NCBI RefSeq assembly: GCF_037042905.1
Contig: NC_087250.1
Span: forward strand, 21,764,001 to 21,828,000
Length of the DNA: 64,000 nucleotides
Direction of reading: 5' to 3'
Source of the DNA: Lytechinus pictus
Taxonomy: Eukaryota
In this document: one piece after another, positions 646 to 43,232 of the stretch
Layout: each line of letters opens with the position of its first letter
How positions within the stretch are numbered: the stretch's first letter is position 1
Program-made: the position numbers and the translations under genes
Notes under the pieces: model-generated
What the model saw: the letters and a program-made list of their open reading frames with translations, nothing else
Databases searched by the model: none
What the model was told of the DNA's origin: nothing

Positions 646-1989
646 AAATGGATTTTTACACATTTCTATCAATAAAAATGATAGAATATGATGACAGTTA
701 TTTTTGGAAAGAGTATCTTCAACAGCATTCATCGTTTCACGGTTCAATGAACATTTATTGAAAACAAAAAATACGATTTTCAAATATCATAGGCAAGTAT
801 TGTTTCATTTTGGTAACTGAAAATGATATTTTCTCAACTTTTTCGTTATGTTCATGACCAATTAACATGCTTCAATGATTGAAAGGCGTTTAATTAAACA
901 TTCACGCTTGTTTGAACATGTGGAATGTGATTAGCTCTTTTTACGTTATTGGAAAAATGCAATTTGTAACCATGGATAGCTGTCACAAACCTCCTTGCAT
1001 AGTTCATTTTATTTTATTTTTAAGAAAATCCCGATGTTTAATGCATCAGTGAGCACACAATATTCGAAAATTATGCAAATGAGAAGAAAGTTCAAGGCCT
1101 TGGCCTCACTTTGTGCCGTATCGAATGGTTATTTTGGTGTGCGCGCCTTTTGGATAGTGTTACTCTGAAGCAATGTGCGAAGTTTCATGAAATAACTGTT
1201 AGCAGAACTAAGTAACAAACACCGTCCATGAAACAAACCCTCATTTCATATTTGTTAAAATTTTTTACTTCCTCTCTCATAGACTTGTGTACATTATGGG
1301 TGCAAATGTTTGAGAATAAGTAACCCCTTATTCAATATGGTGGAACTTTTTTTCAAGGCTGTCTTTAGTAATGTCATTTGGCAGTAATGTTTATCAACCC
1401 ATGGGCAGAATTCCGTGCAAAAATGAAATCGATTTGTTTATTCATGGATGAGTGAGCACGCATCAAAGTGGGAAAATTTGTATTTTCAATGTCACAGACT
1501 CATTTTAAAGGGTAATAAAGTGAATATTTGGGGCAAATTTGGTTTCAAATGTAACTTTAATTGCTGTTGTTTTTATCATCCATCATTTCTATCACCACAC
1601 ACTTTCCGAACTTTAAACATTTTCATGGTTGAGCGAGCACATTCGAAAACTTAGGAATGAATACTCTTTATACTGCATAAATGTATTCTTTTCCTAACAA
1701 TTTCTCATGATCAGTTTACTTTATGGACAAATCAGTGGTGGATCCTGAATTTTAAAGTGGGGGAGAGGCCTATAATCGGGGGAGCCACCAACATTTTCAA
1801 ATTTTAATGTGATCTAACAAGTTGTAGAGGATACTACCATAAACCCCTATGATGATACGTCACAATACAGGGGCGGGGGAAGGGTTTTAAAAGTGGGGGG
1901 GGGGGGGGTCTGACCATGCAAAAAATCGCAATCGTATGGTAATTTTTACATTTTTGTACATGAGTAGTTAGGGGTTAGACCTCATCCTA

Positions 1990-2403
1990 ATTGACCTTTG
2001 ACCTTTGACCTTTGACCGCATGACCTTTGACCCCAACTTCCGGTCACTGTTGACCCCGTGACCCCACCTTCCGGTCAATCATGACCTTTGACCTTTGGGT
2101 ACGCGGTAAACAGGAAATTGGATAATGGAGCGCGGGAAGCGATTTTAATTGGATAATGGAGCGCGGGAAGCGATTTTAATTGGATAATGGAGCGCGGGAC
2201 GCGATTTTAATTGGATAATGACTCCGCGTGGGGACGCCATCTTAATTGGATAGTGAAACGCGGGACGCGATTTTAATTGGATAATGAGGGTCGGCGTGGG
2301 GACGCCACGCTTCAACCCGGAAATGATGGGGGTGAATCTTAAAGAAAGAGTAAAAAGCAGCGCGTGCTATAAAACCCGCCAACTTGGACACCCGGCGCAT
2401 TCT
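1990..2403 (+). promoter_or_regulatory. Terminal enhancer/Pol II promoter of the element (TGACCT direct repeats, CCGGAA motifs, six ATTGG boxes, TATAAAA, Inr-like)
   Basis: (TGACCTT)n at ~1992-2097. ATTGG at 2117, 2148, 2179, 2210, 2245, 2276 in 31-bp repeats with GCGCGGGA. TATAAAA at 2368-2374 and CATTC ~30 bp downstream. Repeated wholly or partly at ~19250-19660, 20150-20565, 25520-25800 and 27575-27985. Confidence 0.6.
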
Positions 2404-2460
2404 GGACCTCGGACTAACCAGAACAGCTCTGCCGCAGGAACACCAATTTATCTACATGCC

Positions 2461-2702
2461 ATGTTGATAACCGTGTGGATGTTGTTTGCGCTTTGTTGCT
2501 ACGTAGTCACGACCAATACCACCAATGACACAGAGTGTAAGTTCGATGGTTGTAATCATATATCATATATATATATATATTACACTTTAATTTTTGTATT
2601 TTGACTTGATATATTACAGTTTTTACCTTTGGATTTAATCTGGGGCAACTTTTTTTGAAAAGTGAAAAGTTATCTTTCTCCGCCTACCGGCAGATATGTT
2701 GA
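2461..2702 (+). CDS. Candidate two-exon 52-aa signal-peptide-bearing micropeptide, join(2461..2536,2620..2702)
   Basis: gccATG just downstream of the TATA/Inr. Hydrophobic start MLITVWMLFALCCYVVT. GTAAGT donor at 2537 and T-rich ...ttacag acceptor at 2619. The copy-variable (AT)n lies within the predicted intron. Confidence 0.3.
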
Positions 2703-3823
2703 CCCAGACTTCCGGTCAGCCACGACGTCACGTACCGTGAAATGGTATTACGACGCAGTTACGCAACCACCGTGATGTCATAGAATTACCCTTATCGAAC
2801 CATCGGTATTGCACCACCGTGGCGCAATCGTCACGTATAGGATACGATGCACAAAACAGACGTATGATTTCTGCACAGTTTCCTATTTAAAAAAGGATCT
2901 TTTTTCGCCTACCGGCGGATATGTCAACCGCCTCGCATGACGTCACCGGCTACGCAAGCACCGTGATGTCATCCCAGGGAATTACCCTTTACCCGGTATT
3001 GCACCATCGTGGCGCAATCGTCACGTATAGGATACGATGCGCAAAATAGACGTATGATTTCTATACAGTTAAAAAGTGAAAAGTTATCTTTCTCTGCCTA
3101 CCAGCAGATATGATCAAGTGCCTCGCGGTTCACGAATCGATCGCCCCATGCACGGCCAACGCGCGTCATTGAACTTGGGATATCCTATTCAAGGTGAAAG
3201 CCGACTCTCTCTCTGCCTCTTATAAAAATTATTGGTAATCCAACATGTGATTATAATCCTGATAATAGTGACATCTCAAGCTCTACTCATTCCAGACTCT
3301 CCCCCATCAAAACTCTCTGACTTTTCCATACTGTTTTGTACATACTTCCATACTTTTCATTTTAACTCACATGACCTGCACGGCTCTCTGACTCGCAAAA
3401 GTATACTATATTGAAACCAGTAGATGACTCCTTTCAATCAACTTCATTCATCCGCAGTACAGATGGTGATAACATGAAACACTATACAGTCAAGGATTAT
3501 TATTTTATTATTATTATCATTTATTCTATTCCATTTCAATGTAGATAGGTTCAGATAGTGTATAAACAGCAGATGTTTATACAAAGGTAAAAATAATGTA
3601 AGATATGTTCTCAAATTACGTTGTCACAACAAAATAATTAACTGTTCATTGTTAATATTAAAGTGAAGTTCTCGTTTTTCTATTTCTTCGCTTAACTTAA
3701 ATATTGTAACACATGTCTATGGATGGCATTCAGAAAATATGAACACAATGATGTTCAAACTGTCATTTATGTTGACGGCGTTTTCTTGGATTATTATTAT
3801 TCGACAAGCTGATGTTTGTGCCT

Positions 3824-4474
3824 TTAGTTGTAGGTTCCATCTTCACCCTCCGTTTCTTCTCCACCATCATCATTATCGTCATCGTCACCTTGATACTGGA
3901 ATAAACCATCGAATTGTGAACCATGTCTGGCTAACACTCTCTGTACGGCTTTCCGGAATCCCATGCCATTCTCTAATCTTTCCGTGAGATCGGACACGAT
4001 TTCACGATTGATGTCAGCGTCTTCGAGGTACACGTTCTGCTGCAAGAACTGAGAGTAAAGATCGAAAAAGATGCGTTTGATTGCCCACATTAGTTTCACG
4101 TGAGCCTTTTCTTTAGCGTCTTCCTCGTCCATTCCTTCTGAGATGTATTTCTGATATTTTTCGTCTCTCAAGTCCTCGGTGGCCGTCATGGCTTGCTCTA
4201 ACCATCCTCGATAAGCGAGGTTGTCTTCAGTTTCTTCCATGTTTGCTGTCATTGACGATTCGTGTCCATCGCTTTCTGATATGCTCGTTTCGGAATCATC
4301 GTTGGATTCTTCAACTCTTTGCATTTGAGAGGGTGGGTCGGAGTCTTCATCTTCACTCGTTTCTTCTCCAGTATCATGCTCATTTTGTTCATGCCTCTGC
4401 ATATCATACTTCCTACTAAAGGTTTTATCGCATCGTGAACAAGCGTAACGGTTGGACATATCCAATGTATTCAT
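3824..4474 (-). CDS. C2H2 zinc-finger / acidic / helical protein (216 aa from first ATG), element-borne, copy 1
   Basis: Intact ORF: YACSRCDKTFSRKYDMQRHEQNEH = C2H2 finger, followed by a D/E/S-rich linker, a helical domain and an acidic tail. Confidence 0.8.
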   Translation of the reverse strand: MNTLDMSNRYACSRCDKTFSRKYDMQRHEQNEHDTGEETSEDEDSDPPSQMQRVEESNDDSETSISESDGHESSMTANMEETEDNLAYRGWLEQAMTATEDLRDEKYQKYISEGMDEEDAKEKAHVKLMWAIKRIFFDLYSQFLQQNVYLEDADINREIVSDLTERLENGMGFRKAVQRVLARHGSQFDGLFQYQGDDDDNDDGGEETEGEDGTYN

Positions 4475-4567
4475 GTTGACTCGATGATTATTTGCTGGGA
4501 AATGAAGAAAATTAACGTTCAACCTTGTAATAATACGTAATCATGAAACGAGCGCGAAGGTACTTTG

Positions 4568-5090
4568 ATTCTTACGGATTCTTATGGATTTTTGCGGATT
4601 TTTGCGGATTCTTACGGATTTTTACGGATTATAGCTTACGGATTTTTACGGATTCTTACGGACTCTTACGGATTCTTACGGATTTTTACGGATTTTTACG
4701 GATTATAGCTTACGGATTTTTACGGATTTTTACGGATTTTTACGGATTCTTACGGATTCTTACGGACTCTTACGGATTCTTACGGACTCTTACGGATTCT
4801 TACGGATTTTTGCGGATTCTTACGGATTCTTACGGATTTTTACGGATTCTTACGGACTCTTACGGATTCTTACGGATTTTTGCGGATTCTTACGGATTTT
4901 TACGGATTTTTACGGATTCTTACGGATGTTTACGGATTCTTACGGATTTTTGCGGATTCTTACGGATATTTACGGATTCTTACGGATGTTTACGGATTAT
5001 AGCTTACGGATTTTTACGGATTTTTGCGGATTCTTACGGATATTTACGGATTCTTACGGATGTTTACGGATTTTTACGGATTCTTAGGGA
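4568..5090 (+). repeat. 10-bp tandem array (TTACGGATTC/TTACGGATTT), ~52 units, left arm of palindrome 1
   Basis: Directly visible. The inverted shorter array at 5175-5355 has ~18 units. Confidence 0.95.
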
Positions 5091-5174
5091 TTTCTTACGT
5101 ATTTATCAATGCTTTCATATAATCTCAAGGAAAATATGTTCATCCACATTAGAATGACCCATGTAAGGATGCAT

Positions 5175-5355
5175 AAGAATCCGTAAAAATCCGTAAACAT
5201 CCGTAAGAATCCGTAAAAATCCGTAAACATCCGTAAGAATCCGTAAATATCCGTAAGAATCCGTAAAAATCCGTAAAAATCCGTAAGCTATAATCCGTAA
5301 AAATCCGTAAGAATCCGCAAAAATCCGCAAAAATCCGTAAGAATCCGTAAGAATC
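5175..5355 (-). repeat. Inverted copy of the 10-bp array (~18 units), right arm of palindrome 1
   Basis: (gaatccgtaa/aaatccgtaa)n. Confidence 0.95.
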
Positions 5356-5447
5356 AAAGTACCTTCGCGCTCGTTTCATGATTACGTATTATTACAAGGT
5401 TGAACGTTAATTTTCTTCATTTCCCAGCAAATAATCATCGAGTCAAC

Positions 5448-6098
5448 ATGAATACATTGGATATGTCCAACCGTTACGCTTGTTCACGATGCGATAAAAC
5501 CTTTAGTAGGAAGTATGATATGCAGAGGCATGAACAAAATGAGCATGATACTGGAGAAGAAACGAGTGAAGATGAAGACTCCGACCCACCCTCTCAAATG
5601 CAAAGAGTTGAAGAATCCAACGATGATTCCGAAACGAGCGTATCAGAAAGCGATGGACACGAATCGTCAATGACAGCAAACATGGAAGAAACTGAAGACA
5701 ACCTCGCTTATCGAGGATGGTTAGAGCAAGCCATGACGGCCACCGAGGACTTGAGAGACGAAAAATATCAGAAATACATCTCAGAAGGAATGGACGAGGA
5801 AGACGCTAAAGAAAAGGCTCACGTGAAACTAATGTGGGCAATCAAACGCATCTTTTTCGATCTTTACTCTCAGTTCTTGCAGCAGAACGTGTACCTCGAA
5901 GACGCTGACATCAATCGTGAAATCGTGTCCGATCTCACGGAAAGATTAGAGAATGGCATGGGATTCCGGAAAGCCGTACAGAGAGTGTTAGCCAGACATG
6001 GTTCACAATTCGATGGTTTATTCCAGTATCAAGGTGACGATGACGATAATGATGATGGTGGAGAAGAAACGGAGGGTGAAGATGGAACCTACAACTAA
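5448..6098 (+). CDS. C2H2 zinc-finger protein, copy 2 (inverted duplicate, one I>V change)
   Basis: Same ORF as 3824-4474 on the opposite strand. A pyrimidine-rich acceptor-like ttttcttcatttcccag lies just upstream, and AATAAA is at ~6397. Confidence 0.8.
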   Translation: MNTLDMSNRYACSRCDKTFSRKYDMQRHEQNEHDTGEETSEDEDSDPPSQMQRVEESNDDSETSVSESDGHESSMTANMEETEDNLAYRGWLEQAMTATEDLRDEKYQKYISEGMDEEDAKEKAHVKLMWAIKRIFFDLYSQFLQQNVYLEDADINREIVSDLTERLENGMGFRKAVQRVLARHGSQFDGLFQYQGDDDDNDDGGEETEGEDGTYN

Positions 6099-7169
6099 AG
6101 GCACAAACATCAGCTTGTCGAATAATAATAATCCAAGAAAACGCCGTCAACATAAATGACAGTTTGAACATCATTGTGTTCATATTTTCTGAATGCCATC
6201 CATAGACATGTGTTACAATATTTAAGTTAAGCGAAGAAATAGAAAAACGAGAACTTCACTTTAATATTAACAATGAACAGTTAATTATTTTGTTGTGACA
6301 ACGTAATTTGAGAACATATCTTACATTATTTTTACCTTTGTATAAACATCTGCTGTTTATACACTATCTGAACCTATCTACATTGAAATGGAATAGAATA
6401 AATGATAATAATAATAAAATAATCATCCTTGACTGTATAGTGTTTCATGTTATCACCATCTGTACTGCGGATGAATGAAGTTGATTGAAAGGAGTCATCT
6501 ACTGGTTTCAATATAGTATACTTTTGCGAGTCAGAGAGCCGTGCAGGTCATGTGAGTTAAAATGAAAAGTATGGAAGTATGTACAAAACAGTATGGAAAA
6601 GTCAGAGAGTTTTGATGGGGGAGAGTCTGGAATGAGTAGAGCTTGAGATGTCACTATTATCAGGATTATAATCACATGTTGGATTACCAATAATTTTTAT
6701 AAGAGGCAGAGAGAGAGTCGGCTTTCACCTTGAATAGGATATCCCAAGTTCAATGACGCGCGTTGGCCGTGCATGGGGCGATCGATTCGTGAACCGCGAG
6801 GCACTTGATCATATCTGCTGGTAGGCAGAGAAAGATAACTTTTCACTTTTTAACTGTATAGAAATCATACGTCTATTTTGCGCATCGTATCCTATACGTG
6901 ACGATTGCGCCACGATGGTGCAATACCGGGTAAAGGGTAATTCCCTGGGATGACATCACGGTGCTTGCGTAGCCGGTGACGTCATGCGAGGCGGTTGACA
7001 TATCCGCCGGTAGGCGAAAAAAGATCCTTTTTTAAATAGGAAACTGTGCAGAAATCATACGTCTGTTTTGTGCATCGTATCCTATACGTGACGATTGCGC
7101 CACGGTGGTGCAATACCGATGGTTCGATAAGGGTAATTCTATGACATCACGGTGGTTGCGTAACCCTTA

Positions 7170-8320
7170 CAAAAAATTCCTGCAGTACTTTAGTGGTACT
7201 CTGTTGTACCTGTGTGATACTTCTGTCATACACGACGGTACCTCAGAATTACCACAGGACTTCTGTGGTATCACTCTGTGATAGTTCTGTCATACTTCTG
7301 TGGTACAGGAAAATATGAAAATTTCCTGCAATACCTTAATGGTACTCTGTCGTACCTGTGTGATACTTCTGTTGTACAAAACTGTATATAGAATTACAAC
7401 AGGACTTCTGTGGTATCACTCTGTGATAGTTCTGTCATACTTCTGTGGTACAGGAAAATATGAAAATTTCATGCAATACCTTAATGGTACTCTGTCGTAC
7501 CTGTGTGATACTGCTGTTGTACAAAACTGTATAGAATTACAACAGGACTTCTGTGGTATCACTCTGTGATAGTTCTGTCATACTTCTGTGGTACATAAAA
7601 ATATGAAAATTTCATGCAATACCTTAATGGTACTCTGTCGTACCTGTGTGATACTTCTGTTGTACAAAACTGTATAAGGAATTACTACAGGACTCCTGTG
7701 GTATCACTCTGTGATAGTTCTACTTCTGTGGTACATAAAAATATGAAAATTTCATGCAATACCTTAATGGTACTCTGTCGTACCTGTGTAATACTTCTGT
7801 TGTACATAACTGTATACAATATCACTCTGTGATAGTTATGTCGTACTTCTGTTGTACATGAAAATTCTAAAATATCCTGCAGTACTTCTATGACAACCCT
7901 GCGATACTTCTGTTGTATATGAACATTTTTTAAATTTCCTGCAGTACTCCTATTACTAAGCACTTCTATGGAAACCCTGTGATACTTCTGTGGTACATGA
8001 ACATTTTGAAATTTCCTGCAGTACTCGATCCTATTAAAGACACTTCTATGAAAACCCTGTGATACTTCTGTGGTAAATGAAAATTTTGAAATTTCCTGCA
8101 GGACTCAATATAGGCACTTCTAAAATTCTATGGCAACCCCAGTGCTATACTTTCAAAATTTCCTGCGGTACTTCTCATGCAGCCACCCCAGAAATATGAC
8201 TGAAACTGTATCACAGACGCTACTGGTGTATTTTCTGTGGTACAGTACATGAAAAAATTAGTTTCCTTCAGTACTTGTATGGAAGCCCTGTTTGTACCAC
8301 AGACTAATTTTTTTATTTCC
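7170..8320. repeat. Left subterminal tandem repeats (~140-bp units, decaying inward) of the CMC-like element
   Basis: Repeated aatttc(c/a)tgcaataccttaatggtactctgtcgtacctgtgtgatacttctg...caggacttctgtggtatcactctgtgatag. Confidence 0.85.
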
Positions 8321-11300
8321 AGTGAGGGATTTATCTTTTTTTTCAGTTTCGGGAGAGGTCAGTAGCGTATTGAGTCTTATATTTTTAGAAGGCCATATGG
8401 CTTAAAAGGGCACCATTCATTTTAAAAAGTACAATTTTTTATATGAAAATTTAATTTTGTGATAGCTAGATTGTGACATATAGGCCCTATTTCAAAATTA
8501 TATTTCACCCTGTCCCATTGTGTAGGTCTATATCAGCGAGGGGGGGGGGGGGTTATGCCTACTGAGACTCAGAGGTTTTAAGTTTGATAGCTTCTATTTC
8601 TACGAGAAAGGGTACTATACGTACTATAGATCAAAACTAGGAGCAAAGCGCGAACTGAAAAATGCGAAAAATTATTGACCCCAAAATGGGCAACTTATAT
8701 TTTGAGGACTATTGTTCGTTTTCAGGGTTATTTCTTTTTCATGCGCTCTTTTAAATTTCAATTATCATTTTTGTTTTGTTTGTTCGCCACTTATTTTTCA
8801 TAAAAAACAGGATGAATAATTAAAAAATGACTATATTTAAAAGGGTACGTGTTGAAATATACAGGACACACCTAACACTCTTAGAGCTTAATGGTTGTGA
8901 GGAAGCCGGGTTGAATTTCAAAGAGATATTGTAATGAATAAAAATATAAGCATGAACGTATTATTCTACTTCATCCATCTCTGTCTAACAATACAAGAAA
9001 ATAATTGAAGGGGAGGTCAACGCTAGAGATAATCAATAAATAGAGTAAAATTCACAAAACAAAATGCTTAAAATTTATTCAAAATCGGATGACAAATAAC
9101 GAAGTTAAGTTGAATTTTAAGGATTTGCAATATTCCCATGAAACAGTTTTATTTAGGCATGTCTCATGAATATTCATTAGGTGGGCTGATGATGTCATAT
9201 CCCATGTTCTTTTGTACAATATATGAAATTAGATTTATTCAACATATTTCTACCAAGAACTTAAACAATTGGAATGACGACTAATTAACCGCATTAGTTA
9301 TTTAATGCAGCAACTTTACAATGGGGACACATTATTTACACATGTATTGAAAAAATAGATAATCATAATTTCATATCTAACATTAAAAAAGAAAAATGGG
9401 AATGTCACATCATCAGCCCACCAAATGAATATTCATGACGATGTGCACACTATCTGTTTTCACAAAATATTGATAAACAATTAACATAAGAAAGTTCAGC
9501 GTTGAATGTTGATTAAAAAATAAATCTCAGTTAAAATGCTATCTAAGATTTTGTTTTACACGTTTCATAACCAAGTTTTAATGCGATTCTGGCCCCTTAA
9601 AGTTTTTATTGCGAGAAAATACATTTTTCCAAGTTTCCCATCTATTTTTTTATTTATTTTTTTTTAGTAAAAAGGACCTATTTTCTTACAAATATATTAT
9701 TATAAATAAAATTACTTCAATATTTGTTCTCCTATTCACAATATTTTTTACAGGTGGAATAGGATAAACTAAAAATAGGATATTTAATTTCCATTTTAAG
9801 GCCTATTTTTTGCTTTATATCCCCGGTTTATATCTTTGCCACCTTGCAATATGTTAGCCAGGCTGGTTTATATCTATTTCTTTTTAAATCAAATAAATTT
9901 GGATATTTTCAATCTATTTTTATGATGCGAAGCTATATATAGTTTGTAAATATGTTTTTTAATTGCAAGAACAATCTTGTATCTCTGTTCACATATGATG
10001 GCAGTTTATTTTGCTTCTTTTTTTCTAATTTGTATGAAGTTTGTATCTATATATTTTCAAACTATTTTCCATCCTTAAAGTGTCACAACCGATATCATAT
10101 TATTTTTTACCTCGTTGGCAAAGTTATTATCTTTTCTTATGTTTCGCTTCAAAATGGTATCTTTATATTTGCTTGTCTTGCTCCTCCACCCCTTATCAAA
10201 ATACCCTGCCGGCACTTGATCTAAGATTATTTTCTTTTACTACTTGAACCTTATAAAGGGATCTTTCCTTCGATCGCAAGAAAGGATAAAATGTGTGTTT
10301 TTGAAAAGAAATAAAATTAAAAATACATAGGATTGGAGCTGTGATTTTCCTCATTGCTTTCTTTGTCATCCTACTTGCATACTAGTAGGCCTATATAACA
10401 TATTTTCAGTAAAATTGTGAGACATGTTTTTAAATCCTATCCTTATATTAAAAAAAAGAATAAAGAGAAAGAAAAAAATTAAAAGACATAGAAAAGAAAA
10501 AGAAAGGAAGAAGAAATAAATATTTGAATTTTACTTTATTCAATTCCTTTACGTTAATAATATGATATATAAATGATGGCGACAATAGTCAAATTGTCTG
10601 GTTGCCAAGTAAAAAGTAAGACCCCCCCCCCCCCCTCCGAGCTCCCCGTACAAACGCACGGACTGTACCGTATACGTGTTTCCGGTTCCGCCATTTGAAA
10701 AAAAACGTTCGTAACTGCTCAGCTGAACCCGAAGCTTGATGAAGAAGGCCGTCAATATTTCAACAAAAACTAACAGAATATGGATCAGATTCGGACAACG
10801 ACTTCTTAAGACATTCACACAACAGGCTAAACAGTAAGTTAGATCCATTTTTCGTAGTTTGGCGCGGCATGCACTTAAATTTCTTCGACTTTTTAATCAT
10901 TACCGTACGGCCACTGCACTGCCGTTGTTCCCGATCGCTTATCGGGTGGGGGCTGATCTGCGGTGTGCGCGGCCGGGGACGGCCAACGGCTGGCTAAGTT
11001 AGTAGTATATTGATGGCGGCGGTGAGGATGTTTGTATTGTCATGATTGTAGCCAGGTCAGGGGTGGGCGCTAATGCAGTTTCGCACCGGCCGATTAATAC
11101 CAGCATACCTCATCACCAATATTTGTTCCCAAATGTCATGACAAGTCTCTCAGTCACATTTGAAGTCAATATATCCACCACTTTTCAAAATATCGTGATC
11201 GGGAATGGCTGTAGCCTTGTAGGCCTAGCCAGGCGGCTTCTAGAGAGTGAAAATCATTTACTAACGTAACTTCGTAAGGTCACTCTCATATGAAGCCAGG

Positions 11301-11589
11301 GATCCTTTCTCATATACCCACACAGAGGAAGCCAAAACTTGAAACTTTCACCCCCGGCCCCGAGATTTCTACTTTCCTTCTAAAAGATCTAGCCTAACGT
11401 TAGACCTAAATCATGTAGGGCCTACATGGGATAAAACTTAATTTCCAACATTTCTACGCTCTCGTCGTTATTTTTGAAGAAGAAATTCATTCCAAAAAAT
11501 GCGAAAAATATCATGATTAGACGGAAGAGACTTGCCCGATGTTTACGCCGCCATCTTGTTTTCTATTGTTCTTCGCCAACGTTACAGAC

Positions 11590-12130
11590 GCGAACTTCGA
11601 GACCATGAACTCGATCTGATATTCTGAGTGACAGAGGTGGGATTTTATGGGGGTGGGGAATATAAAATTCATGCAACATCTTGATTTTTAAAAAGAATTA
11701 AAACTAATATTCTTACTTTACACAAAGTTTCATTTAGTTCCATGCTTTTATCAGTCTCAAAATTGGTGATTTAGAGCCAACATGAAGTTCCTCACACATA
11801 TTTATAATTCGCTGCCGATTTCAAAACATTGCATGCGGATGCAATATTCGCGAGATACCGGGCCTGGTCTGACCCGACCGACCTCACACGCATGCGATGT
11901 ATTGAATATTGATACGTGTGAGAAACTTCATGTTGGCTCTAAATCATCAATTTTGAGATGGATAGAGGCATGGAGAAGAACTGAAACTTTGTGTGCAGGA
12001 AGAATATTAGTTTTAATTTTTTTAAAGAGCGTGATGTTGCATGAATTTGATATCCCCCCCCCCCATAAGATCCCACTTTTTGTCACTCGGAATATCAGAT
12101 GACAGATCCAGTTCACGGTCTCAAAGTTTG
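11590..12130. mobile_element. Palindromic MITE (~540 bp)
   Basis: 11590-11790 is an imperfect reverse complement of 11920-12130 (ctgatattctgagtgacagaggtggg / cccactttttgtcactcggaatatcag). Confidence 0.7.
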
Positions 12131-12597
12131 GGTAGGTGGAGCGTAGTGTAGCAATAGTGAAGTGGAGTGGAGCCTGCACAAACTTCACTCGAGGTAGGCA
12201 ATCCCACAAATTTAAAAGAGGTTTCTATAAAATCAAGTCCGGCCTTCTATGAACATGACAAACTTACGAAAAGATGTGAAGTCAATTCACCCTAAATATC
12301 ATCAATATCCCTCAAATAGCTTCATTTAAGCACTAATTTCTCTTCCGGTTGATAAAATATGGATCCGTCTTTAATTTCCAAAATTGTTCGTCTAACTAGC
12401 TAAAGGACGCATGTTTTATCTACATATTAAAGACACTACATAGAAAAGACTAGGCACAAAGACTATTATACATGTAAATCGATGCAAAGCATTACGCGAT
12501 GTCGGCAAAGTGCCCAATCTTCTTATTGTAAAGACTTTAGCGACAATAACAGACTGTGAGTAAGGTTAAAATGCTCCTCTACTTTTAATGTTTTCAT

Positions 12598-13583
12598 TAG
12601 TGCTGTTGTCGGGAACAAAAATCCATGTCGACATGTCGCTTAAAAATTAATCCCGACATCGACAATGTCGACATGAAAAAGGGACCGTAATTTAGCCTGG
12701 GCTCCCTAACATAAAAAAAAAGCATTCGATCGTGGAACAACACTCTCAATCAAATATATTCACCTTGACACGAGTGATATCCCCACACTAGATCTATATA
12801 ATACAGGCTCAGTTCGGGAATTGAGCTTCCAAAATCACCGATTTAATCCACATTTTTTTTCTGGAGAATCAAGTTTTTGTACCAGGATCCGGTTTCGAAA
12901 GCATTGCTCAATAACACTCGTAGCCAATTTGAGAATCACCAATTACAACAGTGATCATTGCTGCAAACGCAAGCTCCTCAATTTGACAATGAAAAGTAAT
13001 GAAAATCGACTGATAATTTCAGTATCACTTCCGCGGCGATCCGTGCAACGATCTCCAAACGAATGAAGGGAAGTTTTCTGTGACTTCGTGATATGAAGTA
13101 AGCGCTCAATTGCGGCAGTCACAACTTTGACAAAAACACGTGTTCGCTGCTGCTCACGTTTATGTGAAAAGTAATGCATTGAGGAGCAACGTATTATCAA
13201 GCACGGTGAATAGCGCGCGATGGGTACATATTTCCGTGGATGGGTACGGTGAATGCTACTCTCGCTATAACGGGATATCGAGGGCGGTTGATCGGGCAGG
13301 CCGGCCCTGCACTGACGTATTTCTACTGCCGCACAGCTCGCAGATATTCTTTTTTCATTTAATGCGCTGCTAAGCTGAATAAACCTTTTAATCGCGCCAA
13401 TTACTGTGGATAAATGCTTCTAACTTTTCAGCTAATCTTTACACTCGTGATTGTAGGCTAGACCCCTTTTTATTTTATGTTTACATGTCGATGTGGGTGC
13501 GTGCATGTCGACATGTCGGAATTTTGAAAATCCTTCGTATGTCGACATCAATGTCGATATGAGGCCTATCGACAACAGCACTA
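12598..13583. mobile_element. Non-autonomous hAT-like element
   Basis: TIR tagtgctgttgtcg / cgacaacagcacta, 8-bp TSD gttttcat, and GTCGAC-rich subterminal motifs. Confidence 0.85.
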
Positions 13584-15041
13584 GTTTTCATTGATTTTAT
13601 GTTGAATATTATTAAAGAATATGACTCTTTGCACCTGAATTGTAACACTGAAATATGGAAATGAAGAAGTTTTATCATGTATTTTTATTACATCATGTAT
13701 TTGTATTAACCTGCAAATAAAATTTTACTATGTCACTCAAATTCATTTCATTTCATTAAAGATTCAAAGAGGGATCTCTGGATGATCGAGCAGCAAGTCC
13801 AGCATTATGTGGGAAAGATACTACAGGTGTACACAGAAAAGGCCATGTTCTTGTACAAGACACGGTTGGAGTTCATAAAAGGTGATTATATAGGCATTCA
13901 CTTCAGTAGATATTATAATTACAAAATTAAGCAGATTGTATTCATGCAGTGGCATACAGTGTAATCCTTGTTAGAAGATATAGATTTATTCTTCATTGTT
14001 TTATTAAAGAGTTTCAATATGTGCTTATGACAATTTGTTTGCATTATAAATTGTTTGTCACTCTTCGGCTTAGTTTGCTTTTATAAGCAAGAATATGCTA
14101 AGAGAGATAGCCGCAAGGACCTCATTATCCGATAGATATGTACTTGTGAAAAGAGATCTAGATGGGGGCAAAACACCTTATTTCTTGTATTTTTATGTTG
14201 TTCATGTTATCGTAATGGTATGTGTTTTTTTTTCTACAGATTAAGCTGCCTCGTGCTATACAGACTTGGATATTAACAAGCTGTCCAATGAATGGTGACT
14301 ACTCAAGAGGAGCCAGAAAGTCAACTAAAGCCAGGGTATTTTGGGAGTTGATATGGCCGGGGAAGGGGGGAGGGGGGGTTTCCAGGGCCCCCCCCCTTCC
14401 TTGAGATCTTGACCGCACAATCGCGTCTAACATTGGCACATGGGTTGTCTAGGGCATAATTTACAAAATTAAATTGTAAATTATTTCACGCAAATTGTTA
14501 GTAAGTGATAATACTAATTTATGCGTAATTAGAATACAAAATCATACTTTTTCCTCTATTGCATTGACTTTGTACACAAAATCACGTTTTTGAGCAATTT
14601 TTGGTATGACATGTACTTACATAATGTCACGTTATTACAGAACCACGTACCGGGTGACACAAGATTGGTCTCAAAAGATGCACAAGACTAGAAAGAGGCA
14701 TGTTTTAAAAAAATTGTGCGACAGCATGGTCGCAAAATTTTTGGAAGGGGGGGGGGGTCAAATTGGTCCAATTTAACTAAGGGTTAATAACTGGGAGGCT
14801 GTTAGCTGCCTTTTTACTTTCAAGTCTTGCACATCTTTTGAGACCAAATTTGTGATGCCTGGGTACGCTGTTCCGAAATTTCGCAACATTTTTATGTATT
14901 AATCCAACACAAATACTGTTTCTTGCTAAAAATTCACAATTAGTATACCAGTAATATACATTTATCAAGTCAAATTATTTAATTACATTTATAATCATAA
15001 AAGCTTTGATAAAGTATAAAAAAAAAAAAAAGAGTTGTATG

Positions 15042-15968
15042 TAGGCCTGGGACTTTCGGGTTTTTTCTCTTCGGGTACCCGTGGTAATTTTCGGGTGGGT
15101 ACCTGAAAATCATGTCACTTGAAATATGACTGGTGGAAAAACCCCATAGGTGACGTCATCAAGCCAATGCGATGCAAGCCAATTTATGAATGAAAATATA
15201 GTAAGCATGCGCATTGCAAGCCTCCCGTGCCCCACGCAGTATTCCATCGAAACAAGTTTCAATACTCTGTCACCTCGTACCGAAATCGACCTAGAATTCC
15301 ACTTTCCTATATATCATATGAATTATAAAAGGTTTTCTCACCGATACTGCACAGGTAAGCAAATTTTTATTCTTGCTTTTCCGTCAAAATCTTACGAAGT
15401 AGCATCGATATTACATCGTGTTCGTGAGTTTGTATCGCTACGTGAACAAAGTCAATTGATTTCCGGGTTTCGGAGCGTCAAATGCGCCAGCCAATCACGA
15501 TCGTGTTCCCATTTTCGGTTTATGATGAACTAAAAATGGTAACAAGAACGTGATTGGCTGGTGCTTCGTAGGTCGATTTTGGTATGAGGTGACAGAGTAT
15601 TGCAGACTTGTTTTGACGTAATACTGCGTGGGGCTGAGGCTTGCAATGCGCATGCTTACTATATTTTCATTCATAAATTGGTTTGCGTCGCAGTGGCTGG
15701 ATGACGTCCCTGCGCTGCAAAAGAAACATGGCGATGATTGAACGATCTCGGTCACATCATCATCACTTGAAAACTTGTATATTTATGGATATTTAGAGGG
15801 TAATTGGTGAAATTCAAAATGAGGCTTGTGTACTTTTGTAATGAGTTACAATCATGTCTTACACTACGCAATACAAATCAAATACATGTACATTATACTG
15901 GTGAGCAATTTTCGGGTATCGGGTATTGATTTTTCTACTCGGGTACCCGGGTTTTAGTCCCAGCCCTA
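15042..15968. mobile_element. Non-autonomous hAT-like element with an internal inverted repeat (15150-15290 / 15570-15710)
   Basis: TIR tagg(c/g)ctgggact / agtcccagcccta, 8-bp TSD gttgtatg, and CGGGTA subterminal motifs. Confidence 0.85.
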
Positions 15969-17879
15969 GTTGTATGAAAATTTTCAAAAATAATGAAAGG
16001 TAAAAGAAAACAAGATTACAATGTCCATTGCAAGGGGGCTAGTCTAGCTATTCAGGATAATTGGGATTTTATTCAGTTTTTAATTGACATAACATTATGA
16101 CAAGATCCCTCCATTTAGTGTATAAACAGCACATGGCCATGATTGAAATTCATATAACATTAAAGTATGCAAACCAGGCAGCTACATGTACATGTAGGAC
16201 TCACTGCTTGTCAATTCTATTGTCTGCCAGGGTCAAGTGACATACAGTGCACATGTATAACATGTGTGAAAGTACATAAGAAAATCAGCTTTTTATTTTT
16301 GTACTGTAACATTGGGTGAACTGGTGATCACTTTGGATATGATGCTCTTCATATTGGTTTATTTTATGTATATGAATTTTTGGATAATCATTAAGAATTA
16401 AAGCCATTTACTTAATATATGGAAGCATAAGCCCATCAAAGAACAGAATTATGTCATGTACAGCTAATTCATTTTGCGTGATATTACAATTGTAATTGTT
16501 TACTTGAGCAAGTAATTTGAATTGCTGCATGACCTAAACAATGACATGTTCCAATTCGAATAGTAACATGACCTAAAGAAGAGTTACTCCACCTCGATTG
16601 AGAGTGCTTATGTTAAATAATTGATGTTGCTACTTCAAATAATTGAGGTCAATCAAATTGGTCATAATTATTCAAGTCAATTTTGAGCTATATGTCATAA
16701 TTAATTAGGTCATATACTAATTGAAATTACTAAATGACTCGAGTAGGTATGAATTCACATTGCCACATGACCTTAATTATTTTATGTAGCAACATCAAGT
16801 ATTGAACGTCATTTAGTTATCAATTATGACATGTAGCAAATCAAATTACATGCCGCAATTTCGTGTTTATGATGGGCTCATGCTTACATTCATATATAAC
16901 CCTTCAATACGTAGTTGGAGCAATTCTTAGACAAGAAGACTGTGTAAAATGATATGCCTATTCAATGTCAAAAAGGTTAATGTCTCAATAGATTTGATCT
17001 ACGTTTTGGCAAAGTAATCTTATGTTCATATTTTTTCTAACCTATGGTGAACGTTCTAAATCATGTGAAATTCATTCAAAAATATCTTTCAGTATTTATG
17101 GACTTAAGTGAATTCTGAGCAAAATGAAGTGATTATGATTACGTTCATGTACTTTAAGTTTATACTGGTGATCAACACATCATAATTTCATCCCTTACTG
17201 TATGTGCACCATGCATTATCTGTACATGCAGAAGTGGTTATCCATTGTTTCATAACATGGTTGAGTAAAGGATGTTCTGCTTTTAGTATTAAGCCAATCG
17301 GGTGTTGACAAGAAGGGGAAAATGCAATTGCTCAGCTATTACAGTTTTTTTTTGCAACCATAATACTGGTTAAGCCTTGGTTACATTCGCCGGCTCGTGG
17401 CCTTACGTCGAGTCAAAATTAACAGTCTTAATCATCCTTGTACCAGCTACTACCAGCTACACGTGGGTGGTTTGTACAGGAATACCTAAAACTGCTGATT
17501 TTGTCTCGCCGTAAGGCAACCGGTCAAGGAATGTGACCAAGGTATTAATAATAATCGCTTATTGTTGTGTTAGAGGGAAGGATTCTGGGTCGAATCTAGC
17601 TTTCTTTATGTGATCTCAAAATGGCAGCAATGTATGAATAGTGAAAGTAGTTCATGTGGCATCTCAATGTTCATGGATATAAATCTTTGTACATGTCTTA
17701 TCCTAAAGATGAAATGTTACTGCATTATTCTAGCAGTCATTTATGATATCAAAGATGTTCTATACTGTGCATAGTACAGCTCATACATAATAAAGGTATG
17801 TGAATATGCTTTTAACGTCTTTGCAAATTTGTGGGTTTTTTCACGCCTCTTTTCATTAGTCAAGATGTCAAAGTTGTTG

Positions 17880-18875
17880 TGCTGGATCACAGGAAATTCT
17901 TACAAACTACTACGCCTAACAAACCAGTGCAGGACGGTGTCGTGAGAAAATCGCACAGACTACTACAGGACAATACCATAGGATTGTCACAGGAAATCAA
18001 CAAGAATACCCCTGCAGGATTACCACAGTAAAGTATCACAAGAAGGCTGCAGGATGAGACCAATAATGCCACAGAAGATATCAAAGATCAGTATCACAGG
18101 AATACCACAGGACAGTACTGCAGGAATTGTCCTGCGGTAAGGTCTCTTGGTATTCCTGCAGTACTGTCCTGTAGTACTGTTCTGTAGTACTTTCCTGTGA
18201 TACTGGTCTGCGGAATTCCTAAAGTACTGTCCTGTCATACTGTCCTGTGATACTATTTATCACCACAGGATAGTATCACAGGACAGTACTACAGGAATAC
18301 CAGACCAGTATCACAGGACAGTACTACAGGAATACCAGACCAGTATCACAGGACAGTACTACAGGAATACCAGACCAGTATCACAGGACAGTACTACAGG
18401 AATACCAGACCAGTATCACAGGACAGTACTACAGGACACAGTACCAGAAGCCTGCGGTACTCCTGTAGTACTGTCCTGCGATACTGTTCTGTAGTACTTC
18501 CCTGTGATACTGGTCTGCGGTATTCCTGTAGTACTGTCCTGTCATACTGTCCTGTCATACTATCCTGTCATACTGTCCTGTCATACTATCATGTGATACT
18601 ATCCTGTGATACTATCCTGTGATATTGTCCTGTAGTACTAATAGTAGTGTGGTAGTGGTTGTAGCGGTTGTAGCGGTTGTGGTGATCGTGTCCTGTCATA
18701 CTTCCTGCCATACTTATGCGGTTATTACCACAGGAAGTATCACAGGACACGGACCTGTTGTACTCCTGTTGTACATTTCTGTAGTACCGTCCCAAATTAC
18801 GTGCACGTAATTCCTGCAGTACTTTCCTGCGATACTTCCTGCAGTACATATCACAGAGTACTACAGGAATTTTTT
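17880..18875. repeat. Right subterminal repeats of the CMC-like element (35-bp and 12-bp units, both orientations)
   Basis: (cagaccagtatcacaggacagtactacaggaatac)n at 18270-18435, and (tactgtcctgtca-like)n at 18530-18630. Confidence 0.85.
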
Positions 18876-19056
18876 GTAAGGGAACTGCGTCGTAATACCA
18901 TTTCACGGTGACGTCGTGGCTGACCGGAAGTCTGGGTCAACATATCTGCCGGTAGGCGGAGAAAGATAACTTTTCACTTTTCAAAAAAAGTTGCCCCAGA
19001 TTAAATCCAAAGGTAAAAACTGTAATATATCAAGTCAAAATACAAAAATTAAAGTG

Positions 19057-19094
<38 letters not shown>

Positions 19095-20722
19095 CATGAT
19101 TACAACCATCGAACTTACACTCTGTGTCATTGGTGGTATTGGTCGTGACTACGTAGCAACAAAGCGCAAACAACATCCACACGGTTATCAACATGGCATG
19201 TAGATAAATTGGTGTTCCTGCGGCAGAGCTGTTCTGGTTAGTCCGAGGTCCAGAATGCGCCGGGTGTCCAAGTTGGCGGGTTTTATAGCACGCGCTGCTT
19301 TTTACTCTTTCTTTAAGATTCACCCCCATCATTTCCGGGTTGAAGCGTGGCGTCCCCACGCCGACCCTCATTATCCAATTAAAATCGCGTCCCGCGTTTC
19401 ACTATCCAATTAAGATGGCGTCCCCACGCGGAGTCATTATCCAATTAAAATCGCGTCCCGCGCTCCATTATCCAATTAAAATCGCTTCCCGCGCTCCATT
19501 ATCCAATTAAAATCGCTTCCCGCGCTCCATTATCCAATTTCCTGTTTACCGCGTACCCAAAGGTCAAAGGTCATGATTGACCGGAAGGTGGGGTCACGGG
19601 GTCAACAGTGACCGGAAGTTGGGGTCAAAGGTCATGCGGTCAAAGGTCAAAGGTCAATTAGGATGAGGTCTAACCCCTGCTACGTAGTCACGACCAATAC
19701 CACCAATGACACAGAGTGTAAGTTCGATGGTTGTAATCATGTAATATATATATATATATATATATATTACACTTTAATTTTTGTATTTTGACTTGATATA
19801 TTACAGTTTTTACCTTTGGATTTAATCTGGGGCAACTTTTTTTGAAAAGTGAAAAGTTATCTTTCTCCGCCTACCGGCAGATATGTTGACCCAGACTTCC
19901 GGTCAGCCACGACGTCACCGTGAAATGGTATTACGACGCAGTTACGCAACCACCGTGATGTCATAGAATTACCCTTATCGAACCATCGGTATTGCACCAC
20001 CGTGGCGCAATCGTCACGTATAGGATACGATGCACAAAACAGACGTATGATTTCTGCACAGTTTCCTATTTAAAAAAGGATCTTTTTTCGCCTACCGGCG
20101 GATATGTCAACCGCCTCGCAAGCCGTAGTTAGGGGTTAGACCTCATCCTAATTGACCTTTGACCTTTGACCGCATGACCGCATGACCTTTGACCCCAACT
20201 TCCGGTCACTGTTGACCCCGTGACCCCACCTTCCGGTCAATCATGACCTTTGACCTTTGGGTAGGCGGTAAACAGGAAATTGGATAATGGAGCGCGGGAA
20301 GCGATTTTAATTGGATAATGGAGCGCGGGAAGCGATTTTAATTGGATAATGGAGCGCGGGACGCGATTTTAATTGGATAATGACTCCGCGTGGGGACGCC
20401 ATCTTAATTGGATAGTGAAACGCGGGACGCGATTTTAATTGGATAATGAGGGTCGGCGTGGGGACGCCACGCTTCAACCCGGAAATGATGGGGGTGAATC
20501 TTAAAGAAAGAGTAAAAAGCAGCGCGTGCTATAAAACCCGCCAACTTGGACACCCGGCGCATTCTGGACCTCGGACTAACCAGAACAGCTCTGCCGCAGG
20601 AACACCAATTTATCTACATGCCATGTTGATAACCGTGTGGATGTTGTTTGCGCTTTGTTGCTACGTAGTCACGACCAATACCACCAATGACACAGAGTGT
20701 AAGTTCGATGGTTGTAATCATG

Positions 20723-20756
<34 letters not shown>

Positions 20757-21997
20757 CACTTTAATTTTTGTATTTTGACTTGATATATTACAGTTTTTAC
20801 CTTTGGATTTAATCTGGGGCAACTTTTTTTGAAAAGTGAAAAGTTATCTTTCTCCGCCTACCGGCAGATATGTTGACCCAGACTTCCGGTCAGCCACGAC
20901 GTCACCGTGAAATGGTATTACGACGCAGTTACGCAACCACCGTGATGTCATAGAATTACCCTTATCGAACCATCGGTATTGCACCACCGTGGCGCAATCG
21001 TCACGTATAGGATACGATGCACAAAACAGACGTATGATTTCTGCACAGTTTCCTATTTAAAAAAGGATCTTTTTTCGCCTACCGGCGGATATGTCAACCG
21101 CCTCGCATGACGTCACCGGCTACGCAAGCACCGTGATGTCATCCCAGGGAATTACCCTTTACCCGGTATTGCACCATCGTGGCGCAATCGTCACGTATAG
21201 GATACGATGCGCAAAATAGACGTATGATTTCTATACAGTTAAAAAGTGAAAAGTTATCTTTCTCTGCCTACCAGCAGATATGATCAAGTGCCTCGATCGC
21301 GGTTCACGAATCGATCGCCCCATGCACGGCCAACGCGCGTCATTGAACTTGGGATATCCTATTCAAGGTGAAAGCCGACTCTCTCTCTGCCTCTTATAAA
21401 AATTATTGGTAATCCAACATGTGATTATAATCCTGATAATAGTGACATCTCAAGCTCTACTCATTCCAGACTCTCCCCCATCAAAACTCTCTGACTTTTC
21501 CATACTGTTTTGTACATACTTCCATACTTTTCATTTTAACTCACATGACCTGCACGGCTCTCTGACTCGCAAAAGTATACTATATTGAAACCAGTAGATG
21601 ACTCCTTTCAATCAACTTCATTCATCCGCAGTACAGATGGTGATAACATGAAACACTATACAGTCAAGGATGATTATTTTATTATTATTATCATTTATTC
21701 TATTCCATTTCAATGTAGATAGGTTCAGATAGTGTATAAACAGCAGATGTTTATACAAAGGTAAAAATAATGTAAGATATGTTCTCAAATTACGTTGTCA
21801 CAACAAAATAATTAACTGTTCATTGTTAATATTAAAGTGAAGTTCTCGTTTTTCTATTTCTTCGCTTAACTTAAATATTGTAACACATGTCTATGGATGG
21901 CATTCAGAAAATATGAACACAATGATGTTCAAACTGTCATTTATGTTGACGGCGTTTTCTTGGATTATTATTATTCGACAAGCTGATGTTTGTGCCT

Positions 21998-22648: not shown

Positions 22649-22741
22649 GTTGACTCGATGATTATTTGCTGGGAAATGAAGAAAATTAACGTTCAACCTT
22701 GTAATAATACGTAATCATGAAACGAGCGCGAAGGTACTTTG

Positions 22742-23539: not shown

Positions 23540-23631
23540 AAAGTACCTTCGCGCTCGTTTCATGATTACGTATTATTACAAGGTTGAACGTTAATTTTCT
23601 TCATTTCCCAGCAAATAATCATCGAGTCAAC

Positions 23632-27200: not shown

Positions 27201-27369
27201 CGTCGTAATACCATTTCACGGTGACGTCGTGGCTGACCGGAAGTCTGGGTCAACATATCTGCCGGTAGGCGGAGAAAGATAACTTTTCACTTTTCAAAAA
27301 AAGTTGCCCCAGATTAAATCCAAAGGTAAAAACTGTAATATATCAAGTCAAAATACAAAAATTAAAGTG

Positions 27370-27413
<44 letters not shown>

Positions 27414-43038: not shown

Positions 43039-43232
43039 TTAAGGATTCCTCCTACAAACACTAGAATTAAATGGCACACTTGGACAAAAGCACGCATCAG
43101 CATTGGATATTTTTTAACATACACGGTAAACAAGCGTAATTTATACAGGAAATCTGCATAAACCATGGGTTTAACTGAAGGTTTTCAAAACCACCTTTGT
43201 CACTTTGGGCCATTCTGACTATCAAGACTTAC

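What the first reader, a model, noticed from the sequence alone, without database searches (positions are those of the whole stretch)
1963..19678. Snap-back palindromic mini-Maverick unit (~6 kb) present twice
SEEN: 1963-~5090 is the reverse complement of 5175-7163 + 18885-19678 (apart from array length), with only an ~85-bp unique loop. A second copy spans 20125-25502. The arms carry fixed differences kept in both units: the I codon at 4282/22456 vs the V codon at 5640/23824, and the long vs short 10-bp array. So the palindrome formed once and then propagated as a unit. INFERENCE: a copy-back replicon in which a displaced strand folds into a ~3-kb panhandle with origins at both ends, i.e. a minimal parasite of Maverick replication. 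Alternatively, an element with exceptionally long gene-containing TIRs that lost its whole interior.
Basis: partly seen in the sequence, partly recalled or inferred. Interest (0 to 1): 0.75.

Follow-up and report, generated by a model that had tools for sequence, protein, structure and literature searches.

The report
Scrambled fold-back Maverick satellite insertion
A very young virus-like mobile element in a probable sea-urchin genome is made only of mirror-image and re-copied pieces of one 3-kb end segment carrying a single zinc-finger gene, which points to a little-described class of hairpin-shaped parasites of Maverick elements.

Summary
The palindrome is real: two 3.1-kb inverted arms, an 87-nt loop, one Ile/Val change and long versus short 10-bp arrays. 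But there are not two independent 6-kb elements. One 6-bp target-site duplication and the only complete (AGT)2//(ACT)2 ends enclose 1963-28011. Position 19678 is a template-switch junction that recurs at 25818, so the second 'copy' is a local duplication. Without a later 11.7-kb nested transposon, the insertion is 14,329 bp, all re-copied from one arm or its loop apart from fillers of a few to 19 nt. It has no polymerase, integrase or capsid gene; its zinc-finger protein is homologous to the C-terminus of A32-type ATPase fusions. Thin outside evidence suggests a palindromic family: one contig from another species label crosses the centre; a 37%-identical relative has a loop-less inverted array before its gene; paralogues have adjacent accession numbers. 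Best reading: a helper-dependent fold-back Maverick satellite, here multimerised by template switching. No parent was found, so copy-back (about 0.45) versus internal deletion (about 0.3) stays open.

The parts
1957..1962 (+). left copy of the 6-bp target-site duplication
1963..28011 (.). whole Maverick-type insertion; 26,049 bp, 14,329 bp without the nested transposon and its 2-bp duplication
1963..5086 (+). left arm of unit 1 (reference arm), starting with the (AGT)2 end motif
1991..2307 (+). subterminal 7-bp and 31-bp tandem repeats; inferred origin and factor-binding region
   Evidence: function inferred
2368..2604 (+). TATA-like box and short inward ORF remnant (ATG 2461) with a hydrophobic N-terminus, running into an AT microsatellite
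   Evidence: not shown to be a gene
2760..3126 (+). 175-bp tandem duplication (80% identical), enhancer-like; several junctions fall here
   Evidence: function inferred
3824..4474 (-). zinc-finger gene, 216 aa, Ile allele, pointing outward
4567..5103 (+). long 10-bp array (52.4 units) with decayed inner edge
5087..5173 (.). 87-nt unpaired centre of unit 1
5174..7164 (-). right arm of unit 1, inner part: short array 5174-5355
5448..6098 (+). zinc-finger gene, 216 aa, Val allele (C2H2 finger, acidic linker, helical domain)
7165..18882 (.). later nested DNA transposon, 11,718 bp, 25-26-bp terminal inverted repeats, 2-bp duplication, no transposase-sized ORF; CACTA/EnSpm-like by recalled end features only
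18883..19678 (-). right arm of unit 1, outer part; stops 7 nt short of the terminus (junction J1)
19679..20124 (+). re-copied arm piece 2498-2937 plus 4-nt junction J2
20125..23270 (+). left arm of unit 2; lacks the first base; zinc-finger gene 21998-22648 (-), long array 22741-23287
23271..23357 (.). centre of unit 2, same sequence and same orientation as in unit 1
23358..25502 (-). right arm of unit 2; short array 23358-23539, zinc-finger gene 23632-24282 (+)
25503..25848 (.). 19-nt filler replacing arm 2599-2274, arm 2273-1970 reversed, second copy of junction J1, arm 2498-2527
25849..26936 (-). reverse copy of the unit-2 left arm (shares its private 4-bp insertion)
26937..26995 (+). templated filler: 51 nt of the zinc-finger gene with the right-arm (Val) allele, then 8 nt matching the loop edge
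26996..28011 (-). true right end, arm 2960-1963 reversed, ending in (ACT)2
28012..28017 (+). right copy of the 6-bp target-site duplication

Best explanation
A non-autonomous, fold-back Maverick/Polinton satellite, caught as a scrambled multimer. SHOWN: one insertion with Maverick ends and a 6-bp duplication, built almost wholly from one 3.1-kb arm; the basic unit is arm, 87-nt loop, inverted arm; each arm has an intact outward-pointing zinc-finger gene of a Maverick-linked family; the extra pieces arose by serial template switches in at least two rounds; an unrelated transposon inserted afterwards. INFERRED: a displaced or excised strand folds into a long panhandle whose duplex end is an origin for a helper's protein-primed polymerase; a helper integrase inserts it; fold-back synthesis or conversion keeps the arms identical; the 10-bp array beside the gene promoter is where strands slip and fold back. 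Origin of the centre: fold-back at the array about 0.45, interior loss from a parent with gene-bearing long repeats about 0.3, stepwise growth of the repeats about 0.15, other 0.1. Whether the multimer formed on free DNA before integration or in the chromosome afterwards is about even.
For: Single duplication and only two complete ends. End motif and 6-bp duplication are those of Mavericks (PMC8097293 section 7 and passages). No ORF able to encode a core gene; the ATPase parts of 4 of 4 fusion proteins find no match in the window. The finger plus helical domain aligns to the C-terminus of three ATPase-fusion proteins (hhalign 99.6%, E 9e-25); of 9 relatives scanned, one passes the Pox_A32 cut-off and one hits below it. 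J1 is duplicated; piece 25849-26936 equals the reversed unit-2 left arm apart from an AT-run; the filler has the right-arm allele: both are reverse complements of earlier parts of the same strand, as copy-back predicts. Of the 40 difference rows shown (295 not shown), 9 differ from the window in all covering contigs or reads of all 4 runs; all 9 lie where both arms are identical, so the arms change together or were copied recently. One contig of run X14 crosses long array, centre and inverted array into the gene and has its first part on the opposite strand. L001 starts with a 94-nt perfect inverted arm around unequal arrays just upstream of a 37%-identical gene. Adjacent accession pairs among paralogues. 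Published terminal repeats reach about 1.5 kb, half of this arm, which weighs against simple deletion.
Against: No parent and no stand-alone 6-kb copy with its own duplication was seen; no genome is held. The X14 support is 1 contig in 1 of 4 runs, with 30 other letters and 19 gaps, and the alignment over the loop was not visible. X1 has no depth in the loop bin, and one X1 contig carries at least 255 unrelated letters directly upstream of the gene promoter. L001 is 1 locus, broken at its first base, and may be a small fold-back element that merely sits there; this window holds unrelated inverted-array palindromes (41500-42102). Accession adjacency is not position. Each array has its own decayed inner edge, as two old repeat borders would. 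No run is close enough to be the same individual (best share of words 0.31), so the junctions have no read support.
Confidence: 0.65

Rival explanations
1. One reading: two separate 6-kb snap-back replicons, each propagated as a unit.
For: Both units carry the same arm asymmetries and the same loop.
Against: Neither inner boundary has a complete end or a duplication; junction J1 was copied with the unit; one duplication encloses both.
Confidence: 0.03
2. Ordinary internal-deletion derivative: the autonomous parent has 3.1-kb terminal repeats that hold the zinc-finger gene and array, and lost its whole interior. The scrambling is later palindrome instability in the chromosome.
For: Both arrays run from the same first units to the same last units and then have different decayed edges. 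Vertebrate Mavericks have accessory regions at both sides of the core. Long chromosomal palindromes provoke template switching (recalled).
Against: Reported repeats are 46-1,447 bp in 134 intact vertebrate elements and 100-1,500 bp in general. L001 shows a centre with almost no loop, which is simpler as a fold-back.
Confidence: 0.3
3. One-off local accident: a Maverick end fragment folded back once at or near this insertion event, and no palindromic family exists.
For: The arms differ at one fixed substitution outside the array, as expected of a recent copy. None of the window's junctions is among the 15 joints listed (2 not shown).
Against: The X14 contig across the centre, L001 and adjacent paralogue pairs point to palindromic centres elsewhere.
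Confidence: 0.15
4. Assembly or library artefact (fold-back chimeric reads, or two haplotypes joined).
For: The right arms of the two units are identical over 2,061 nt; no reads of the same individual were available.
Against: The two left arms differ by several private changes; the nested transposon with its own duplication sits in one unit only; both outer ends are exact with a perfect duplication; no host flank is duplicated.
Confidence: 0.05
5. A Foldback/Galileo-type cut-and-paste element that captured a Maverick gene and grew its repeats stepwise.
For: Galileo copies with the longest repeats are non-autonomous and recruit neighbouring internal sequence into the repeat (PMC3573991 passages). 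Stepwise growth could apply here too.
Against: End motif and 6-bp duplication are Maverick-type; Galileo has 7-bp duplications.
Confidence: 0.05

Closest known systems
Maverick/Polinton elements (polintoviruses, adintoviruses); PMC8097293, PMC10748475
   Same: (AGT)2//(ACT)2 ends, 6-bp duplication, inverted termini with short tandem repeats, intronless gene, net length inside the 12.7-24.6-kb range of intact vertebrate elements.
   Different: No polymerase, integrase, ATPase, protease or capsid gene; arms of 3.1 kb against a reported maximum near 1.5 kb; the gene lies inside both arms; the insertion is a multimer of one arm.
Copy-back and snap-back defective viral genomes; PMC13506859 passages
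   Same: Near-full palindrome with the same origin at both ends, template-switch junctions with 1-4-nt overlaps and templated fillers, dependence on a helper.
   Different: Described mainly for RNA viruses in infection; this one is an integrated DNA element. Derivation from one end of a parent, interference and packaging are untested.
Foldback/Galileo long-repeat transposons; PMC3573991 passages
   Same: Long, internally repetitive inverted arms of unequal repeat number, no transposase, structural instability.
   Different: Other ends and duplication length; carries a Maverick-linked gene; presumed self-synthesising rather than cut-and-paste.
Non-autonomous Polinton families in repeat libraries (recalled, not checked in any call)
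   Same: Maverick ends without core genes.
   Different: I could not check whether any such entry is a gene-bearing palindrome.
Ziftr zinc-finger genes of some adintoviruses (10.1101/2024.03.25.586562 passage); pm, the ORF after the ATPase gene in vertebrate Mavericks (PMC8097293)
   Same: A zinc-finger regulator-like gene in this virus group; pm lies next to the ATPase, to which this domain is fused in some relatives.
   Different: Homology to Ziftr or pm was not tested; these are leads only.

Membership tests
Maverick/Polinton (autonomous) | (AGT)2//(ACT)2 or (AG)3//(CT)3 end motif | tested here: met
   1963-1968 and 28006-28011; motif from PMC8097293 section 7
Maverick/Polinton (autonomous) | 6-bp target-site duplication | tested here: met
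   around 1963-28011 only
Maverick/Polinton (autonomous) | terminal inverted repeats | tested here: met
   1963-2960 against 28011-26996, 97.4% with gaps only
Maverick/Polinton (autonomous) | polymerase, integrase, ATPase, protease and capsid genes | tested here: not met
   no ORF above 238 codons in the arm or 154 in the nested insert; ATPase parts of 4 fusion proteins unmatched; polymerase, integrase and capsid were excluded by ORF content, not by a profile search
Non-autonomous Maverick derivative | retained sequence of Maverick origin | tested here: met
   domain homologous to the C-terminus of A32-type ATPase fusions; the Maverick identity of those ATPases rests on the Pfam hits and recalled knowledge, without genomic context
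Non-autonomous Maverick derivative | dispersed copies with their own ends and duplications | tested here: inconclusive
   no genome; related genes on several Lytechinus pictus contigs; family present in 4 of 4 runs laid, ends not seen
Non-autonomous Maverick derivative | replication and integration by a helper in trans | not testable with these tools
   inferred from ends, duplication and missing genes
Copy-back/snap-back defective genome | near-full palindrome with terminal origins | tested here: met
Copy-back/snap-back defective genome | both arms derive from one end of the parent | tested here: inconclusive
   no parent in 5 viral, 1 metagenome and 2 genome scans
Copy-back/snap-back defective genome | packaged with, and interfering with, the helper | not testable with these tools
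   only the 14.3-kb net length hints at it
Foldback/Galileo (P superfamily) | 7-bp duplication and P-type transposase or its ends | tested here: not met
   6-bp duplication, Maverick ends, no transposase ORF
CACTA/EnSpm-like (nested insert only) | short inverted ends, 2-bp duplication, transposase | tested here: inconclusive
   ends and 2-bp duplication seen; no transposase-sized ORF; family label recalled

The most novel reading that the evidence does not exclude
Animals host an old, widespread class of fold-back Maverick satellites built around an inverted repeat-array hub that drives two outward zinc-finger genes. They behave as true defective-interfering DNA viruses: on free linear DNA they multimerise by template switching up to helper-genome length (14.3 kb here), are packaged and integrated by the helper, and the finger protein, a relative of the packaging-ATPase C-terminus, binds the array or helps hijack packaging.
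Probability: 0.2. Interest if true: 0.85.

Novelty: new variant of a known kind. Interest (0 to 1): 0.56.

Why it matters
Maverick replication is modelled, not observed: a racket-shaped single strand copied by a protein-primed polymerase (PMC4196379 passage). A young insertion whose junction order can be read base by base is a fossil record of that polymerase's, or the host's, template switching. Gene-less or one-gene palindromes are also missed by surveys that demand core genes or a loop of many kilobases (PMC8097293, PMC10748475, PMC11131425 passages). If such satellites are families, they make testable whether Mavericks have defective-interfering parasites and whether those are selected for packageable length. 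If the centre is only a deletion remnant, the finding drops to an unusually long-repeat Maverick derivative with palindrome instability.

Tried and rejected
Own genome: none held, so the search for stand-alone copies could not be run. Parent search: viral contigs with P0001 (0 of 15 candidate stretches), A1 (0 of 8), the terminal 19-mer (0), A5 (0 of 72), A6 (0 of 57); genome contigs (0 of 7; 0 of 15); metagenomes (1 of 160, L001). Alignment A3 was too diverse for that tool. Longer fused forms: none among 8,000 candidates, weak evidence. Structure: model of mean pLDDT 63.9; no match at E 0.001 in viral or PDB libraries; Atlas gave generic C2H2 clusters and nothing for the helical domain. Rfam: 0 hits in 1900-28100. 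The 204-aa ORF across the array (4543-5157) is rejected as a product of a stop-free repeat unit; its Pfam hits have 0 matched stretches and it changes frame in unit 2. No RNA holder listed. Raw RNA run X23, about 6 in 100 read, gave 146 reads on both strands, only 10 at 99% or more; these come from relatives and I do not count them as expression of this copy. Enrichment of junction ends at the termini (2 of 12 within 8 nt, p 4e-4, micro-fillers left out, J1 counted once) was considered as proof of formation on free DNA and rejected: stalling at the base of a chromosomal hairpin predicts the same. The flanks looked like two halves of one small host element, but alignment gave only a G-run match. 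Earlier scan notes: nothing by protein, by DNA, among relatives or nearby. Literature searches that found no description of a palindromic gene-bearing Maverick derivative: (listings; open-licence library only).
Full report
What is in the sequence. A self-comparison and an exact-match decomposition show that 1963-28011 consists of pieces of one reference arm (1963 to about 5090) in both orientations, apart from the loop, an 11,718-bp nested transposon and short fillers. The order is: left arm 1; 87-nt loop; right arm 1, which is interrupted by the nested element and stops 7 nt short of the terminus at 19678; junction J1 to arm 2498-2937; junction J2 to arm position 1964; left arm 2; the same loop; right arm 2, with a 326-nt deletion bridged by 19 nt; J1 again at 25818; arm 2498-2527; arm 3569-2488 reversed; a 59-nt filler; and arm 2960-1963 reversed. 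The complete end motif occurs only at 1963 and 28011, and one 6-bp duplication flanks them. The boundary at 19678 and the reading as two units that moved separately are not.

Order of events. The two right arms are identical over 2,061 nt. Left arm 1 has three private changes. Left arm 2 has its own, including a 4-bp insertion that recurs only in piece 25849-26936, which otherwise differs from the reversed left arm 2 only in an AT-run. The filler at 26937-26987 has the right-arm allele in left-arm orientation. Both pieces are reverse complements of earlier parts of the same strand, which is what fold-back synthesis makes. Unit 2 has the same orientation as unit 1 and carries J1, so its template already held J1: at least two rounds were needed (inference). 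Junction overlaps are 1-4 nt, with short templated fillers. Piece 19679-20120 and unit 2 cover the site of the nested transposon without it, so that insertion came last (inference). Two of 12 junction ends fall within 8 nt of the terminus with no host flank (p 4e-4). This fits free linear DNA, but also stalling at the base of a hairpin in the chromosome, so it does not date the scrambling. The net length is 14,329 bp, inside the 12,723-24,620 bp of intact vertebrate Mavericks.

Is it a Maverick derivative? The (AGT)2//(ACT)2 ends and 6-bp duplication are the published marks (PMC8097293, section 7 and passages). No ORF could encode a core gene. The only clear gene occurs four times, intact, 216 aa: one C2H2 finger (Pfam E 9e-5, below the curated cut-off), an acidic linker and a five-helix domain. 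Fifteen relatives were found among 195 candidates; the named ones are Lytechinus pictus proteins, up to 97-98% identical over part of the length. The host is therefore probably a sea urchin of or near that genus (inference). A profile search gave 43 hits at E 1e-30 or better. In several distant hits the finger and helical domain are fused behind an ATPase; of 9 relatives scanned, P0143 passes the Pox_A32 cut-off and P0146 hits below it. The profile comparison with three fusions gives 99.6%, E 9e-25. The ATPase part has no match in the window. This ties the gene to the packaging module of Maverick-type viruses, though without genomic context. No known fold matched the helical domain.

Is the palindrome a family trait? 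No genome is held, so the evidence is indirect. (1) Reads and contigs of 4 runs were laid on 23200-25860. All four hold relatives, mostly 90-99% alike. In run X14, labelled as a different organism from the other three, one 471-nt contig runs from the long array across the centre and the inverted array into the gene start, and its first part lies on the opposite strand further along the arm. It has 30 other letters and 19 gaps over the centre, and I could not see the alignment, so homology of the loop itself is not shown. Among the 24 pieces listed (454 not shown) no other bridges the centre. X1 has no depth in the loop bin, and one X1 contig has at least 255 unrelated letters directly before the promoter: a truncated copy or a parent's interior. 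None of this locus's junctions is among the 15 joints listed (2 not shown), and a loose end of X5 at 25522 continues as the undeleted arm, so the deletion looks local. (2) Nine of the 40 difference rows shown separate the window from all four runs, and all nine lie where both arms are identical. The arms were therefore copied from each other recently or are kept identical. (3) L001, the only locus confirmed among 160 metagenome candidates, encodes a 37%-identical protein and begins with a 94-nt perfect inverted arm around a short and a long array of unrelated sequence, with almost no loop, 132 nt before the start codon (92 nt here). The contig breaks inside that arm, as an assembler would at a hairpin (inference); a small fold-back element at that spot is the alternative. 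(4) Paralogues come with adjacent numbers: LOC135157286 and LOC135157287 on contigs of the same length, and XP_011664919 and XP_011664920; other members are unpaired in that list, and numbering is not position. (5) P0003 has an internal tandem duplication, so other copies are rearranged too. Unchecked notes of this scan report a 4.26-kb palindrome with Polinton ends in the same genome and 14.5-kb and 13.6-kb ones in other genomes; these are leads, and a DNA look-up found no look-alike of this arm.

How it most likely works. The published model has an extrachromosomal single strand that forms a racket and is copied by the protein-primed polymerase before integration (PMC4196379 passage). A unit with 3.1-kb arms would snap back at once; the centre alone folds at -94 kcal/mol, z -18. 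The duplex end would present a complete origin to a helper polymerase, and both strands have the same end. Self-templated synthesis would explain identical arms, slipped arrays and the scrambled multimer. A helper integrase would give the 6-bp duplication. The finger genes point outward from the array; binding of the protein to the array is a guess. All of this is inference from anatomy. For the origin of the centre, fold-back at the array is slightly favoured (about 0.45): reported terminal repeats stop near 1.5 kb and L001 has almost no loop. Interior loss from a long-repeat parent stays at about 0.3, because each array has its own decayed inner edge. Galileo-like stepwise growth is about 0.15.

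Comparison and novelty. It is not an autonomous Maverick, because the core genes are missing. It works like a copy-back or snap-back defective genome as defined in PMC13506859 (passages), but derivation from one parental end is untested. Nine searches of the open-licence library listed no paper on palindromic, gene-bearing Maverick derivatives. I saw passages of PMC8097293 (plus section 7), PMC10748475, PMC3014272, PMC8502044, PMC6431247, PMC5499653, PMC9863843 (reference titles only), PMC13506859, PMC4196379, PMC11131425, PMC3573991, 10.1101/2024.01.15.575659, 10.1101/2024.03.25.586562 and 10.64898/2026.10.13.758929. I read no supplements; element tables in those of PMC8097293 and PMC8502044 may bear on repeat length and on the gene's identity. 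The founding papers of 2006-2007 and repeat-library entries for non-autonomous Polintons were not seen and are recalled only; they may already hold such elements.

Verdict. Real, very young, and larger than reported: a single 26-kb insertion holding a 14.3-kb scrambled multimer of a fold-back Maverick satellite. New variant of a known kind; interest 0.56.

Noticed in passing
window 7165-18882: Nested 11.7-kb DNA transposon with 25-26-bp inverted ends, 2-bp duplication, 145-bp and 13/35-bp subterminal arrays and no transposase-sized ORF; holds its own palindromes at 11593-12128 and 17961-18637.
   Followed up: partly
window 2368-2604: TATA-like box and a short inward ORF with a hydrophobic, signal-peptide-like start and two N-glycosylation motifs, running into an AT microsatellite; perhaps a relic viral secreted protein.
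   Followed up: no
window 41500-42102: Unrelated palindrome of two inverted 53-bp arrays with almost no loop, fold-back-like.
   Followed up: no
window 29938-30251 and 50017-50330: A 310-bp palindromic element present twice in opposite orientation, 89.5% identical.
   Followed up: no
window 42439-43042 and 55998-56570: Inverted 600-bp repeat pair, 91% identical.
   Followed up: no
window 52122-52739 (-): Host gene exon with a nucleotide-diphospho-sugar transferase domain, PF03407, E 3e-21.
   Followed up: no
window 1-636: About 10 copies of a 51-60-bp tandem repeat cut by the window edge.
   Followed up: no
L001 1-324: Hairpin of unequal 9/13-bp arrays directly upstream of a TATA-like box and the zinc-finger homologue.
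   Followed up: yes
proteins P0013, P0016, P0077: Gene models in which the zinc-finger N-terminus is joined to a sialyltransferase, a kinase or a ubiquitin-like domain; annotation chimeras or capture of host exons.
   Followed up: no
window 25514-25691: RNA run X23 shows its highest depth (18-20) over the 31-bp subterminal repeats, strongly one-stranded; reads are from relatives and the stretch is repetitive.
   Followed up: no
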